A stretch of DNA of 64,000 bases from Candidatus Marinacidobacterales bacterium (GTDB lineage: Bacteria > Acidobacteriota > Vicinamibacteria > Marinacidobacterales > SMYC01), in assembly GCA_965237955.1 (NCBI GenBank), contig OZ250169.1, positions 2,464,001 through 2,528,000 on the forward strand. The letters are read 5' to 3'. Positions 4,548 through 10,670 of this stretch are shown here, piece after piece. How positions within the stretch are numbered: position 1 is the stretch's first letter; every line of letters begins with the position of its first letter. The translations under genes and the position numbers were made by a program. The notes beneath the pieces are model-generated. The model did no database searches, was not told where the DNA came from, and worked only from the letters and a program-made list of their open reading frames with translations.

Positions 4548-4697
4548 GCCCAGCCTCGAGTCACAAACTCGCTATTATCCCTCGAAGGCGGGGCGGCTGG
4601 ATAGTGGAATCTCGAAGGTACCGAACGCGCGACGATGGTGCAGCCGGAGCACCGTTAGGTTTCATTGCGCTCGTGCATAGCGTACCCTGAAGGCTTC

Positions 4698-6346
4698 ATG
4701 CGTCGATTGGTGATCGCGGTCTCTGTTGCTCTTTCGGTTGCGTGCACTGAGCCTGACCCGCCGCCCGAACCAAAGCGCGACGCATCGCAAGGGGCGGGTA
4801 AACACGTCCAGCTCTTACACCTCGATGGCTACCGACCCGATTTGACCCGGACGCTCCTCGAGGCCGGAAGGCTTCCCCGCCTCTTTGAGCTTCGAGCGCG
4901 CGGTCGCATCTCTTACCAGGCCACGACCGTCGACAAATCGGAGACGATGAAAGTCATCCAGTCCTATCTGACGTCGCAGCTCGATACCAGGGTCGCTGGC
5001 TGGTGGCAATTCGATCGGGAGCGGTTTCGGTTCGCGAACTACTGGCTCGACCCGGCCGAGGTGTTGAACTACGCGCTCGGTCTCGAGTTTCCGGTGAGCC
5101 CCACGATCCAGGACTTTCTCGCGGCGCGCGCGCAAAATCTCGTTGCCGGGATGAGCCTCGCCCGCCGAAGCGTTCCTTTCGAGAATTACGGGCGCTCCTA
5201 CCTCGAAGGCGTGGCTGCCGTGTCGGCTCACACTTATCACGAGCAAGCGGACGCGACGACGAAGAGTTTTCTAGAAATTCATCGCCGGATCGTTCGTGAC
5301 GGCGAGCAACCTCCAGCGCTCTCGACGTTGCTGCTCGCGGCAGCCGACGAGTTCTCGCATGCCTACGGTGTGACCACGGCGCGCGACGAAGCCGAGCACT
5401 GCTTCCGTCGCGATGACGATGGTATGGATAGCACCGTCTTTCGTTTGCTGAACGAGGATTCGACCCTCCGGGATTTCGAGACACGCTACTTTACCCGCGT
5501 TGCTCGAGGCCGCGGGGGGGCCGCCGACGAAATCTGCATCGAGCTCCCGTTGATCGAAGGTCGTCGAGCGGAGCCCCGTTATGTTCTATCCATGATCGTT
5601 GTCGACATCGAGCTTGGCTACGTCATCGATTTTTTCAAGAGCGTTCGCTTCGACGACGGCGAATCTCTTTTCGACCGCACCCTTTTTATCGTGTTTGGCG
5701 ACCACGGCATGGTCGACACCGCGAACGGCATGGTAGACCGGGCCGGCGGCGAGAGCTTGATCACCTATCTGAATCGCCGGCTCGGGCTCGAAACCGGGCA
5801 GCGGGAGACGGCGCTTCCCGACGATATCGAGCTCGGAATCGACTACCAGCACCTGCCGCGCCGATTACGCCAGCCGGAGAGTTATCGTGAGTGGCAGAGT
5901 GAAAACGTCCGCGCCCTCACCGAAGAGGCGAGCTTGTGGTCGCAGGAGTTTTATCGAGAAGGGCGCGAGCTGCTGCTCACCGACTTGCACGAGAGCTACT
6001 GGTGGCTATTTTTTCTAAGGCGGCTTCTCGTCGATCCCAAGGTTGACGAAGCTCTCGATCCCGTGGCCGAGCAAGCGCTCGCTACGTTCCGAAACCTCTA
6101 CCTCCGAAGCCGTCCGGAGTACCTGGCCGCCGAGACCGAGGCGAATCGCGACTTCTACGACCGGAACGTGCGGCTGGTGTATGGAGGCGGTGCCCGGAAC
6201 AACGCGGAGGTCTTCATCCCCGTCTGCGGAGCCAACCGAGCTTGCTCGTGGGAGCGTCGACCCAGCTACGACGAGATTCTGAGGTATCGAGACGGCGCTC
6301 TGATGGAGGCGCTGGTCGAGAACCCGGGCGTCGGCCTTATCTTTAT
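4698..6346 (+). pseudogene. alkaline phosphatase/NPP superfamily lipoprotein, 5' part (interrupted by ISL3)
   Basis: Lipobox-like SVAC, plus LHLDG, DEFSH and GDHG metal-binding motifs. The frame is restored when the IS is removed. Confidence 0.75.
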
Positions 6347-6382
6347 GGTTCTCCTGTCGTTTCGGGGGATCTGATTTGTGTT

Positions 6383-6704
6383 GGAGGGCATGGCCTATGG
6401 ACGCTGCCGCGATTGTGGAAAACGCCGGAAACTCCGGGCGAGAGAGGCGTTTAGGGAAAGGTTGTGAGCACGTACAAACGTGGAGCGGCGTTTTCCACAA
6501 TCGCTTGGAAAACGCTTCGCGTTTCCCACGAGCGCCCACAGGCCCCTCCTGATATATATACAAGAAAGATTAATTCATATGGAATAAGGAAGGGGGGGCT
6601 CGATTAGTGGAGGCTATGGAAAACGCCCTTCCAGGCTTCGAAGAGAACTCAGTCGTGAGCAAGGTCTGAACGACCAGAACCGTGGGGGCGTTTCCCACAG
6701 CCTC
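6383..6704 (-). ncRNA. candidate structured RNA or ssDNA element in the ISL3 left non-coding region
   Basis: Perfect 19-bp stem 6409-6427/6486-6504 plus three further stems. Five A.C mismatches on + become G.U on the minus strand. Confidence 0.5.
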
Positions 6705-6829
6705 GTCTCCCGCTGAGGGGCAGTGGCATTTGGTGAGGCCCGTGGGTTGAGAGGGTAAGCCATGTGTAGATGCGCATCGGCGAGAACGCTAGAATCTTTT
6801 TTTCCGAAAGAGAAAAGAGCGTTCCCGCG

Positions 6830-8050
6830 ATGCGCGTTACTACGTTAGTCAACAAGCTCATCGGATTGCAAGGCCTGTGGGTCCGAGGTTTCCACTTCCA
6901 GGCGGACAAAGCCAGAGTGGTGGTGGATGTAGTACCACGGAGGAGGAAGCCTCTGTGCGGGATTTGCGGACGAAAGGTCCGCAAGAACAAAGATCGCTAC
7001 AATCGCTACTGGCGGCACTTGGACCTGTTCGGAGTCCGGACCTATCTTCGCTACTCGATCCGACGAGTGGTATGTCGGCGGTGTGGAGTGGTCAGAGAAA
7101 AGGTGCCTTGGGCCGACAAGGGAAGCCGCTTTACCAAAAGCTTCGAACAAGAGGTAGCGTGGCTGGCACAGAGGACGGACGTCAGCGCCGTAGCGAACTA
7201 TTTCCGAGTGACGTGGCGTTCGGTGCGACGGATCATCCAGCGAGTGGTTGCCGAGCAGCGGGATGAGCGGCGCGAGCTCGATGGATTGCGGGTGATTGGG
7301 ATGGACGAGATCAGCTACCGCAAACGCCACAAGTACTTAACAGTGGTAATAGACCATCTCAGCGGCCGGGTCGTCTGGGCGGGAAAGGAGCGCAAGGCCA
7401 AGACGCTGCTGCGGTTTTTCCGCAAGCTCGGACCACAAAGAGCCGCGGAGCTCGAAGCGGTCAGCATGGACATGTGGGAGCCGTACATAACTGTCGTCGG
7501 CAAAAAGGCTCCTCAGGCACGGGTGATCTTTGACCGCTTCCACATCGTCAAGCATCTGAACGAGGCCGTGGATAAGACCCGGCGCGAGCTGGTGCGCGAG
7601 CTCAAAGGGACTGCCCGGCGCAACCTCAAGAACACCAAGTTTCCCCTTCTCAAGGCCAAACACAACCGCAGCGCGAAAGACAAACGGGTGCTCCGCGAGC
7701 AGGTGCGAGCTAATCGTCGCCTCTACAGCGCCATGCTTCTGCGCGACGACTTCATGGACCTCTACACCTACAAAACCGAGACATGGGCCAAGAAGTTTCT
7801 CCGAGGATGGCTGCGGCGCGCTATGAGCTCGAGGATAGAGCCCGTCAAACGCGCGGCGAAGATGATCCGCAGCCACTTCGATGGCGTCATCGCGTGGGTC
7901 ACGTGGAGACTCAGCAACGGCCGACTCGAAGGAATGAACAACAAAATCCGGCTGCTGAGCCACCGCAGCTTTGGACTCCACTCTGCCGAAGCTCTCATCA
8001 GTCTCGTCTACCTAAACTGTGGCGGTCTCACCCTCGAGAGGATCCACTGA
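6830..8050 (+). CDS. ISL3 family transposase
   Basis: Zn-finger CxxC..CxxC, IGMDE, SMDM, FDRFH and SNGRLEGMNNKI motifs. Confidence 0.96.
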   Translation: MRVTTLVNKLIGLQGLWVRGFHFQADKARVVVDVVPRRRKPLCGICGRKVRKNKDRYNRYWRHLDLFGVRTYLRYSIRRVVCRRCGVVREKVPWADKGSRFTKSFEQEVAWLAQRTDVSAVANYFRVTWRSVRRIIQRVVAEQRDERRELDGLRVIGMDEISYRKRHKYLTVVIDHLSGRVVWAGKERKAKTLLRFFRKLGPQRAAELEAVSMDMWEPYITVVGKKAPQARVIFDRFHIVKHLNEAVDKTRRELVRELKGTARRNLKNTKFPLLKAKHNRSAKDKRVLREQVRANRRLYSAMLLRDDFMDLYTYKTETWAKKFLRGWLRRAMSSRIEPVKRAAKMIRSHFDGVIAWVTWRLSNGRLEGMNNKIRLLSHRSFGLHSAEALISLVYLNCGGLTLERIH

Positions 8051-8073
8051 AATGGCAGGAGAGGCATCTTTAT

Positions 8074-8920
8074 TAGAAGGAACAACGAGGCGTACTCAGC
8101 CGGTGCCCGCCTTCCGGCTCAGCTCGAGGTGGAGGTGCGTGACCGCGAAGGTCATCGGGGCGTGATCACGGTGAGCCAGGATGCGGCAACGTCCGCGCTC
8201 GTGTTCCACTATCGAACCGATCCAAGCTCCGATGCGGACCCTCTCGGTTACGAAGCGTGGGGGCGCGGCGACGGGACGTTCGGCACGTACAACGAGTGGA
8301 ACGATCGGACGATCGACAGCGACTACGTCAATGTCGTCGGGGGGATGGGCGCGTATCTCTACTCGCACAACCCGGCGATTGGTGATGTCGTCGTGATGCA
8401 CGCCACCAACTGGAATTTCGGGGAGAACGTTGGAGGGCATGGCGGCGTTCATGGTGGCGAGAAGCGTACTGTGATGCTCGTATCCAATCCGGGCGGTCCG
8501 GGCGGCCCCGGTGTCGGCTCGGGAGAGCTACGAGCTCGAGCTCGCTACGCCACGACCGAGGATGGCTCCGTCATCCAAGTCGAGGGCAAAACGCATGTGC
8601 CTACCCTTCTCGATATCGCGCCGACGGCGCTCTCGTTTCTCGGCTATGCGCCAGAGGAGCTCGACGCCTTTGCCGAGAACGAGTTCAAAGCCCACTTGGA
8701 CCAATGGATCCGTTCTCAGCACGACGACATTCTCGTTCACCTCGAAACGATGAGTTCGCTCGAAAAAGCGAAAGACGAAGCCGGCCTTCCCGAGTTGAGC
8801 TTGGAGCCGCTCATGCCGCGCATTTCCCGCCTCCTCGAGTTCGTGGGGACGGCTCGCGAGAAAACCTTGGCGCGCGTCGCGCCGCGACCGATATTGGGGA
8901 ACGAGCTGATCATCGAATGA
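8074..8920 (+). pseudogene. alkaline phosphatase/NPP superfamily lipoprotein, 3' part
   Basis: GGHGG and LLDIAPTAL motifs. In frame with the 5' part across the duplicated target (GLIF-IRRNNEAY). Confidence 0.8.
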
Positions 8921-9225: not shown

Positions 9226-10670
9226 GGAGATGCCCCTGAGATAGTTGAAGGTTAGGAGTGGCGGCTCCTAAGGCCGGGTTCGATAGAATCCGGCTGTGAA
9301 GGAAAAAGAAAGGAGCCACCACGATGTCAAATTACCAAATCATCGATGCGAAGAACAGGAAGAAGCTTCGAGAGATACTGAGCTCGAAGGGGCAAGCTCT
9401 GTTGCCGTTCTTGGATGCGATTGAGCGAACCGAGATAGCGATCGACGAAGTGATCGACGTTGCTGGCCGAGCGACGATCGAAGCGGTCTTGGATCTGTCA
9501 GCCCAAAGTGTGGCTGGGGAGAAACACCCGGGGAAGAAGGGTAGCGATGTTCGCTGGCACGGCCGGCAGGGTGGCGTAGTAAGCCTTGCGGAGCGGAAGT
9601 TGAGAGTGAGCCGGCCACGTCTGCGGCGTAAGGGAAAGGCAGAGGGAGGGGAGGTTGCGATTCCTGCCTACGAAGCGGTGAACAACTCGTCTCGGCTGAG
9701 CCAACGCATCTGGGAAATCCTGATGCTGGGTGTGTCGACGCGCAAGTACGCGTCGGTTCTTCCCGAGATGGCGGAGACGGTAGGGGTTAGCAAGAGCGAG
9801 GTGAGCCGTGAGTTCGTGGAAGCAAGCGCGGAGCAGTTGCAGGGGCTGATGGAGCATCCGCTGGACGAGCTGGAGATCGCGGTCGTGTACCTGGACGGGA
9901 TTCGCTTCGGCGAGCACCACGCGCTGGCGGCAATCGGCGTAGATACAGAGGGATACAAGCATGTTCTGGGGCTTCGGGATGGAGCATCGGAGAACCAGAT
10001 AGTGTGCAAGGCGCTGCTGGAGGACCTGGTCGAACGAGGCCTGAGCCCAGAGCGGTGTCGGCTGTTCGTGATCGATGGCTCCAAGGCGCTACGGGTCGCC
10101 GTCGACGCTGTGTTCGGTACCCACAACAAGGTCCAGCGTTGCAGGAAGCACAAGGAGCGCAATGTGCTCGGTTATCTGCCGCAGGAGCTGAAGCCGCAAG
10201 TGCAAGCGAGCCTGCGTTCGGCCTGGCAGCTCCCAGCAAAGAAGGGCAAAGCGCGGTTGGAGCAACAGGCGAAGTGGCTCGAGGACGACTACCCCTCGGC
10301 GGCGGAGAGCATCCGGGAGGGGCTCGACGAGATGTTCACCATCAACGAGCTCGACCTCCCCGCATCTCTGAAACGCTGCCTTGGATCGACGAACACCATC
10401 GAGTCGTGCTTCAGCGGTGCGCGAGGTCGTACCCGTCGCGTCACCCGCTGGCGCAATGGCAAGATGGTTCTGAGATGGGCCGCTTCGGCTCTGCTCGCCA
10501 CGGAGAAAAATTTCCGTCGTATCATTGGATACCAATCGCTACCGATCCTCGAAGCGAAGTTAGCGGAGGTCACTGAGAATCAAGCGCTCGACAAGCACGC
10601 CAAAGTCGGGTAAACCATGTGTCAGGAGCCGCCACCACCTCGAACCTTCAACTATGGTGGGGGCACCTCC
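9226..10670 (+). mobile_element. IS256 family insertion sequence (1445 bp)
   Basis: IRs GGAGATGCCCCTGAGATAGTTGAAGGTT / GGAGGTGCCCCCACCATAGTTGAAGGTT. 8-bp duplication GAAAATCA at 9218-9225 and 10671-10678. Confidence 0.95.
9324..10613 (+). CDS. IS256 family transposase
   Basis: GVSTRK, VYLDG, VIDGSKAL, QRCRKHKERN and STNTIES motifs. Confidence 0.96.
   Translation: MSNYQIIDAKNRKKLREILSSKGQALLPFLDAIERTEIAIDEVIDVAGRATIEAVLDLSAQSVAGEKHPGKKGSDVRWHGRQGGVVSLAERKLRVSRPRLRRKGKAEGGEVAIPAYEAVNNSSRLSQRIWEILMLGVSTRKYASVLPEMAETVGVSKSEVSREFVEASAEQLQGLMEHPLDELEIAVVYLDGIRFGEHHALAAIGVDTEGYKHVLGLRDGASENQIVCKALLEDLVERGLSPERCRLFVIDGSKALRVAVDAVFGTHNKVQRCRKHKERNVLGYLPQELKPQVQASLRSAWQLPAKKGKARLEQQAKWLEDDYPSAAESIREGLDEMFTINELDLPASLKRCLGSTNTIESCFSGARGRTRRVTRWRNGKMVLRWAASALLATEKNFRRIIGYQSLPILEAKLAEVTENQALDKHAKVG

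What the first reader, a model, noticed from the sequence alone, without database searches (positions are those of the whole stretch)
6383..6704. ISL3 element carries a large, strand-specific folded module in its left non-coding end
Seen: about 480 bp separate the left IR from the transposase start. Domain 1 (6383-6549) is a three-way junction. It has an outer stem GGCCTATGGACGCT/AGCGCCCACAGGCC, a perfect 19-bp stem (6409-6427/6486-6504) closing a bulged inner arm, and a side hairpin at 6506-6528. Domain 2 (6610-6704) is a second 19-bp stem closing a 57-nt structured loop. Three stems reuse TGGAAAACGC. All five mismatches in these stems are A.C on +, i.e. G.U on the minus strand, so folding appears selected on the strand antisense to the transposase. 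Established: IS110/IS1111 (bridge/seek RNAs) and IS200/IS605 (omega RNAs) encode functional RNAs in non-coding ends. I know of no characterised equivalent for ISL3. Inference: an IS-encoded structured RNA or folded ssDNA with a role in transposition or its control. A purine-rich bulge (6437-6448, GGCGAGAGAGGC) matches the right end of the element (8054-8065, GGCAGGAGAGGC) at 10/12, which may be chance.
Basis: partly seen in the sequence, partly recalled or inferred. Interest (0 to 1): 0.85.

Follow-up and report, generated by a model that had tools for sequence, protein, structure and literature searches.

The report
Replication-origin mimic folded inside jumping genes
The folded stretch is one copy of a Y-shaped structure shared by many unrelated insertion sequences; it likely folds as single-stranded DNA rather than RNA, and because it resembles the unwinding site of the bacterial replication origin, it would recruit the host initiator DnaA to help the element copy itself.

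Summary
Observation confirmed: all four stems, five A·C mismatches (G·T on minus), no Rfam match, inside an active 1,719-bp ISL3 (51 full copies). It is not ISL3-specific. Domain 1 matches (69.5 bits) a covarying three-way junction found beside transposases of IS3, IS481, IS1202, IS21, IS110, IS256, IS30 and ISL3, nearly all circle-forming families. The scan had seen this cassette on other DNA without a mechanism. New here: (1) its triloops are mostly G-N-A on the wobble strand (28/36; 11/17 in a second set), a DNA-stable loop, pointing to ssDNA rather than RNA; (2) its 3' arm and flank have the layout of the oriC basal unwinding system (tandem DnaA boxes, GC spacer, DnaA-trios), with the trios on the same strand as a 5' tail; (3) a profile of relatives' oriC element scores only the true oriC above this site among 16 million positions. 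Best reading: a fold-back DnaA landing pad that primes replication of the single-stranded copy-out intermediate. DnaA binding and priming are untested; about two thirds of modules lack clear trios, most ISs lack the module, and a promoter reading of the oriC element remains. The bulge/right-end match is chance.

The parts
6339..6346 (+). Left copy of the 8-bp target duplication
   Evidence: 40 of 51 full-length copies have an exact 8-bp duplication
6347..6371 (+). Left terminal inverted repeat of the ISL3 element
   Evidence: (I1)
6383..6388 (+). Optional 6-bp outer extension pairing with 6544-6549; not part of the family core; would cover the first trio
6392..6544 (-). Domain 1: three-way junction, member of the cross-family cassette; folds on the minus strand
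   Evidence: 69.5 bits, E 7.5e-13, model built without window sequence
6409..6504 (-). P2 arm: perfect 19-bp stem holding a perfect DnaA box in duplex (6414-6422 with 6491-6499); inner 58 nt variable
6506..6528 (-). P3 hairpin with G·T wobble, capped by a C(GAA)G triloop on the minus strand (loop 6516-6518)
6522..6540 (+). Tandem DnaA-box-like 9-mers (6522-6530, 2 mismatches; 6532-6540, 4 mismatches)
6541..6545 (+). GC-rich spacer
6546..6554 (-). Three DnaA-trio-like triplets (central A on the minus strand), a 5' tail of the folded strand; 6537-6561 matches the host family's oriC element
6551..6588 (.). AT-rich linker between the two domains; a similar linker in L205 (ISL3), L007 (IS21), L014 (IS110)
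6610..6704 (-). Domain 2: 19-bp stem with box-like arms (6615-6623, 6691-6699), variable 57-nt interior; same stem in IS21 and IS110 ends
   Evidence: (23 bits)
6830..8050 (+). ISL3 transposase, 406 aa
   Evidence: PF01610, PF13542, PF14690; NF033550, 320.9 bits, cut-off 180
8041..8065 (-). Right terminal inverted repeat
8066..8073 (+). Right copy of the target duplication

Best explanation
This is the ISL3 copy of a conserved three-way-junction cassette carried by many insertion-sequence families, and it likely works as folded single-stranded DNA that mimics the oriC unwinding site, so that host DnaA would load helicase and primase on the strand displaced during copy-out transposition. Shown: the fold, its covariation, its spread over unrelated IS families, G-N-A loops and wobbles on one strand, and the box-box-spacer-trio layout with the trios on that same strand. 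Inferred: (1) the minus strand becomes single-stranded when the figure-eight is replicated, which needs the left end to act as donor; (2) folding rebuilds duplex DnaA boxes in the stacked P1/P3 stems and in P2, with the trios as a 5' single-stranded tail, the geometry on which DnaA oligomerises in vitro; (3) DnaA loads the helicase as at the R6K A-site hairpin, and the circle becomes double-stranded; (4) the cassette is an optional booster swapped between IS ends, not an essential end sequence.
For: Covariation: 11 of 29 pairs, 118 two-sided changes against 32.7 in shuffles and at most 21 when slid. Spread: 31 of 150 phylum genomes, at least 121 metagenome stretches; 77 of 78 loci with an assigned transposase are circle-forming families or unclassified rve relatives, against 11 of 31 multicopy elements of the own genome from other families (family list from bioRxiv 2023.06.07.543989). 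DNA signature: 28 of 36 triloops G-N-A with all four N, in seven IS groups; 11 of 17 in the model-found set; background 276 of 1612; d(cGNAg) stability in PMC3201870. DnaA: TTTTCCACA 38 times in 95.6 kb around dnaA of 30 genomes against 7.7 per Mb elsewhere. One module's 3' end matches a Priestia dnaA-dnaN origin at 89.5%. The published BUS rule is met by 24 of 82 and 8 of 25 modules against 7.0 and 1.3 expected and by this copy. A trio profile from phylum oriCs scores 3' flanks above shuffles (55 of 80, 22 of 24) but not mirror flanks (31 of 61). A family oriC profile places only the real oriC above this site. One module sits in a conjugative-element region with no transposase seen. Precedent: ABC primosome (PMC6127211); 5'-tail trios (PMC8287927).
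Against: No binding, priming or transposition data. About two thirds of modules fail the BUS rule; IS1202 (1 of 16) and IS481 (1 of 9) copies mostly lack trios. This copy scores only 1.3 on the general trio profile, its triplets are imperfect, and the 6-bp extension would cover the first. The family oriC element also reads as an extended -10 promoter for dnaN, and its profile was chosen after I saw the likeness (24 outside sites score as well once the box end is dropped; one of 20 rows misaligned). No general tracking of the host's own oriC sequence (19.9 vs 19.0-19.3 matches, 20 genomes). P1 boxes are 3-4 mismatches from consensus and contain wobbles. None of 29 other multicopy elements of this genome, 18 of them circle-formers, has it. 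47 of 83 side hairpins have longer loops. For IS2/IS911 the right end is the usual donor (recalled), which would displace the sense strand, whereas the folded strand is antisense in 66 of 78 loci. Loci are related, so counts overstate independence.
Confidence: 0.5

Rival explanations
1. A duplex DnaA site or mini-origin: DnaA binds the boxes in double-stranded DNA and opens the trios and AT-rich linker, to time transposition to the replication cycle or to start replication within the element or its circle; the fold forms on the opened strand and holds it open.
For: Same box/trio evidence; two perfect boxes exist in duplex form; the linker is flanked by box pairs from both domains. A DnaA site in the IS50 outside end is recalled, not tested.
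Against: Nested palindromes with covarying arms, conserved wobbles and GNA loops are not needed for duplex binding; real oriCs do not match the junction model; more than 50 active origin copies would be costly (inference).
Confidence: 0.2
2. A structured RNA (antisense or cis-regulatory) transcribed from the minus strand that controls transposase expression or acts with it.
For: G·U-compatible mismatches and covariation fit RNA too; folded strand is antisense to the transposase in 66 of 78 loci.
Against: GNA triloops dominate, and 4-nt loops are rare (3 of 83). The fold would be an inward antisense RNA in IS3/IS21, a 5' leader in 11 loci and an outward RNA here. No promoter-like site in 6300-6900. 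No Rfam match. RNA does not explain the oriC layout.
Confidence: 0.12
3. A folded ssDNA signal with another partner or moment: a priming or protection signal used during horizontal transfer or at forks, read by PriA, primase or RNA polymerase rather than DnaA.
For: ssDNA signatures; copies in a conjugative region, near a plasmid repA gene and on a phage contig; many copies lack trios.
Against: Does not explain tandem boxes plus trios on the right strand; most assignable copies lie in IS ends; no orientation bias to the replichore (20 vs 18).
Confidence: 0.12
4. An independent miniature mobile element, or a neutral relic, lodged in IS ends.
For: Patchy across ISL3 (present at 70% and 32-34% transposase identity, absent in the genome's second ISL3 at 36%); one derivative lost part of it by recombination between repeats (L006).
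Against: No duplication flanks the module (sequence); only three places outside the ISL3 copies, two of them at the end of an IS3-like element; strong covariation and a conserved junction; kept in transposase-less derivatives (L005).
Confidence: 0.06

Closest known systems
ABC primosome A-site (R6K ssiA; Masai et al. 1990, known to me through passages of PMC6127211)
   Same: A DnaA box in the stem of an ssDNA hairpin; proposed outcome is helicase loading and priming.
   Different: Here a branched fold with several boxes, wobbles and a trio tail, inside insertion sequences; activity untested.
oriC basal unwinding system, BUS (PMC8287927, passages)
   Same: Tandem boxes with the upstream one nearer consensus, short GC spacer, three or more central-A triplets on the strand whose 5' tail DnaA coats.
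   Different: Not at the chromosomal origin; embedded in a fold-back structure; trios degenerate or absent in most copies.
IS110/IS1111 bridge or seek RNAs; IS200/IS605 omega RNAs
   Same: Long structured non-coding IS end.
   Different: No guide match to target or ends, DDE transposase, shared across families, and present in IS110 elements as well, 380-430 nt past the ORF in two.
IS200/IS605 subterminal hairpins and REP sequences
   Same: Strand-specific ssDNA hairpins near element ends.
   Different: Those are read by the element's own HUH enzyme (PMC6006769 abstract); this one accompanies unrelated DDE and DEDD enzymes, so a host partner is implied.
ISL3 family
   Same: Transposase domains, short terminal repeats, 8-bp AT-rich duplications.
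   Different: Carries the cassette; the genome's second ISL3 does not.

Membership tests
ISL3 family | ISL3 transposase | tested here: met
ISL3 family | Terminal inverted repeats and 8-bp target duplication | tested here: met
   (40 of 51 copies exact)
ISL3 family | Circular intermediate | tested here: inconclusive
   No circle joint in contigs of four further runs; three end-to-end junctions among loci, one explained by a local hop
oriC basal unwinding system | DnaA box with at most 2 mismatches and a second with at most 4 | tested here: met
   6522-6530 and 6532-6540
oriC basal unwinding system | Three or more central-A triplets within 16 bp of the box | tested here: met
   15 nt spacer, 6546-6554; met by 32 of 107 family copies, 8.3 expected
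oriC basal unwinding system | Lies at the chromosomal origin | tested here: not met
   Inside an IS; the dnaA-dnaN region is elsewhere
oriC basal unwinding system | DnaA-dependent oligomerisation and unwinding | not testable with these tools
   needs protein assays
ABC primosome site (ssi) | DnaA box within a hairpin stem | tested here: met
   perfect box in the 19-bp stem
ABC primosome site (ssi) | Acts on one DNA strand | tested here: inconclusive
   GNA loops and wobbles agree on one strand; indirect
ABC primosome site (ssi) | Primes complementary-strand synthesis | not testable with these tools
   needs an ssi assay
Bridge/seek RNA | Loops complementary to target and donor core | tested here: not met
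   bulge match at chance level; no shared target sequence
Bridge/seek RNA | IS110 DEDD recombinase | tested here: not met
Omega RNA | TnpB/IscB partner in the element | tested here: not met
   single ISL3 ORF
Catalogued Rfam family (incl. Clostridiales-1) | Covariance-model match | tested here: not met
Independent MITE | Own target duplication and solo copies | tested here: not met

The most novel reading that the evidence does not exclude
Many unrelated insertion sequences carry a swappable fold-back origin: an ssDNA structure that rebuilds the oriC DnaA-box/DnaA-trio unwinding module only on the strand released during copy-out, letting the transposon call in the host initiator to replicate its own circle.
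Probability: 0.4. Interest if true: 0.92.

Novelty: new variant of a known kind. Interest (0 to 1): 0.8.

Why it matters
[quoted passage not shown] A cis-acting DnaA/trio signal would be a direct, testable answer, would link transposition to the initiator and the cell cycle, and would show origin mimicry spreading between unrelated transposons. Even if the DnaA reading fails, this is an uncatalogued, strongly covarying, probably DNA-level structure shared by at least eight IS families.

Tried and rejected
Rfam: nothing on the module; Clostridiales-1 (a recalled lead) no match over cut-off in 5 genomes. Guide reading of the bulge: chance. Inner arm and 57-nt loop as conserved folds: not supported. 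Metatranscriptome contigs (four runs, one study): the left end is covered, in two runs by one contig over 6347-6873, with no boundary at the module; contigs give no strand or level, so this is evidence neither way. Circle joints in four further runs: none; contigs drop rare forms. Replichore bias: 33 vs 19 by global skew, 20 vs 18 with 14 unclear by local skew; none shown. Host-specific oriC tracking: not found. First oriC profile was built on 2 sites, one wrong, and discarded; redone. The 'False' for this window's BUS rule came from a test string starting one base late; one search gives the count. Plasmid BLAST: no match for the window module; short or chance hits (the Collinsella hit is a lone hairpin, no model match). 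Viral pattern scans: 2 loci, none. The transposase search of GTDB returned near-identical copies only. Energy comparison of strands is confounded by composition.

Full report
The element. The finding lies in the left end of a 1,719-bp ISL3 (6347-8065) with ~25-bp terminal repeats, an 8-bp duplication and one transposase. The genome holds 51 end-to-end copies, 40 with an exact 8-bp duplication of unrelated AT-rich targets. All stems and the five A·C mismatches are as described, and the region folds far better than shuffles on both strands, more so on minus. The inner arm and the 57-nt loop are not conserved folds, and the bulge/right-end match is reached by 135 of 2000 random windows.

It is a shared cassette. 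A pattern for the side hairpin and closing strand hit 6 of 301 phylum genomes and at least 121 metagenome stretches, 80 fetched. I used those 80, six genome loci (leaving out 24 repeat copies from three genomes) and three earlier loci: 83 distinct modules. Of 62 that parsed fully, 53 short ones were aligned. On the three-way junction 11 of 29 pairs change on both sides, 118 cells against 32.7 in shuffles and at most 21 when slid; the free P2 base covaries at 5 of 5 pairs. A model from this alignment, which has no window sequence, hits domain 1 at 69.5 bits and 31 of 150 phylum genomes. The junction is conserved (57 of 62 share two forms). Transposases were assigned for 78 loci (76 of 108 non-redundant; 32 unassigned), by Pfam/NCBIfam or by BLAST to labelled ones: IS3 19, IS1202-type 19, IS481 and like 10, IS21 8, IS110 7, unclassified rve 5, IS256 4, ISL3 4, IS30 1, IS1182 1. 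bioRxiv 2023.06.07.543989 (passages) lists IS3, IS21, IS30, IS256, IS110, ISL3 and IS1202 as circle-forming; counting IS481 with them is my recall. In the own genome 11 of 31 multicopy elements belong to other families, a rough one-genome baseline. None of 29 other multicopy elements scanned has the module, so it is accessory. Position: 61 at the 3' end in the gene's sense, 11 at the 5' end reversed, 5 at the 5' end in sense (all ISL3, IS1182), 1 at the 3' end reversed. Earlier scan notes e1-9793845 and e1-6645791 describe what appears to be the same cassette, function unknown; 'always pointing inward' has six exceptions here, ISL3 among them.

DNA or RNA. Of 83 side hairpins 36 have a 3-nt loop and 28 of these read G-N-A on the wobble strand (GGA 12, GAA 7, GCA 6, GTA 3), in seven IS groups; the C-G closing pair was forced by my pattern, the loop was not. 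In 25 new loci found by the model, 11 of 17 triloops are G-N-A; comparable hairpins in the genome give 276 of 1612 counting either strand. d(GNA) loops closed by C-G are unusually stable in DNA (PMC3201870, abstract and introduction); that RNA lacks this bonus is recalled. The window's own loop is C(GAA)G. Four-base loops are rare (3 of 83); 44 have longer loops. An RNA would have three different transcriptional contexts across families, and no promoter-like site was found. RNA contigs could not decide.

The oriC likeness. The arms are DnaA-box-like; TTTTCCACA is about 50-fold enriched around dnaA in 30 genomes, and the perfect stem holds one in duplex. A module from a phage contig hit, in plasmid BLAST, only the stretch near base 1,440 of two records; the one I opened is a dnaA-dnaN interval, where the match is tandem boxes, GC spacer and trio repeats. 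PMC8287927 (passages) defines this basal unwinding system, notes that the upstream box is nearer consensus, and reports that DnaA oligomers need boxes and a 5' tail with trios. Its rule is met by 24 of 82 and 8 of 25 modules (7.0 and 1.3 expected from shuffled flanks) and by this copy. A trio profile from 15 of 19 dnaA-dnaN regions, a few probably spurious, scores 3' flanks above shuffles (55 of 80; 22 of 24) and mirror flanks not (31 of 61); IS1202 and IS481 copies mostly score low. For this copy, a 25-base profile from 20 relatives' origin element (aligned on the host's own site, which was left out of the profile; one row misaligned; window chosen after seeing the likeness) scores 6537-6561 at 20 bits; among 16 million positions outside the IS only the real origin scores as high, and 24 do when the box end is dropped. 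That origin element also reads as an extended -10 promoter; the IS copy lacks the last T of such a -10. Modules do not in general resemble their own host's origin more than others. The trios lie on the strand with the wobbles and GNA loops, 5' of the P1 stem: three signals agree on one strand.

Mechanism. In copy-out/paste-in one end attacks the other on one strand and host replication converts the figure-eight to a duplex circle; either end can attack in IS256-type elements (PMC7780238, passages). A DnaA box in an ssDNA hairpin suffices to load DnaB and prime (PMC6127211, passages; the Masai papers themselves not read). I infer that the displaced strand folds, presents duplex boxes beside single-stranded trios, and recruits DnaA. 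For this ISL3 the folded strand has its 3' end at the left repeat, so the left end must be donor: a testable prediction. The recalled right-end preference of IS2/IS911 runs against the model for IS3 members. Rivals are a duplex DnaA site, an RNA, a DnaA-independent ssDNA signal and a relic.

Novelty. No Rfam family. Paper searches (listings seen, one passage of PMC6006769 read) showed no description of such a cassette or of trios in IS elements; the library lacks most subscription journals, and I read no supplements, where large motif surveys might list it. Scan note e1-9991528 reports DnaA-box-like sites in an IS110 end but rejected an unwinding layout there; not checked. Verdict: a real, widespread, uncatalogued structure; probably DNA-level (about 0.8) and a DnaA target (about 0.7); priming of the copy-out strand is the best mechanism (about 0.5). 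It works like an ABC-primosome site with a BUS layout but is not an oriC and not a guide RNA.

Noticed in passing
window 4665-6346 and 8074-8920: The ISL3 has split a phosphodiesterase-like gene (weak PF01663 hit on the 5' part).
   Followed up: no
window 9324-10613: An IS256-family transposase; the three multicopy IS256 types of this genome that were scanned have no module.
   Followed up: partly
L005 1500-1926; L006 1340-1679; L017 1501-1684: Transposase-less derivatives joining the left end and module to the last ~60 bases of the element, with a shared junction in two genera; L006 lost the box/trio part by recombination between repeats.
   Followed up: partly
L318 9370-9483: Module between a coupling-protein gene and a VirB11-like ATPase gene, in a region with ssb and a DNA methylase; no transposase among 18 ORFs scanned.
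   Followed up: partly
L317 10758-10833; L101 197-282: A weaker module 150 bases after a plasmid-type repA gene; another on a phage contig, whose 3' end matches Bacillota oriC sequence.
   Followed up: partly
L063, L070, L100: Right-end/left-end junctions of this IS with 11, 5 and 11 base spacers; L063 is a local hop with overlapping duplications, the others could be circle-type dimers.
   Followed up: partly
whole genome: About 117 of the 179 perfect TTTTCCACA sites lie in copies of this IS, which might titrate DnaA. The element is near-identical in genomes of three other genera, one in another family, suggesting recent horizontal spread.
   Followed up: no
L362 (dnaA-dnaN region): A real origin whose trio run begins with CGA repeats, the same variant seen behind many modules.
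   Followed up: no
L136, L166, L203, L150, L202, L013: Simple forms without the P2 arm: one long hairpin with two abutting boxes in each arm, a likely ancestor of the three-way junction.
   Followed up: partly
NZ_CP140268.1 (L286): A record listed as a Priestia plasmid begins with dnaA-dnaN-yaaA and looks like a chromosome fragment.
   Followed up: no
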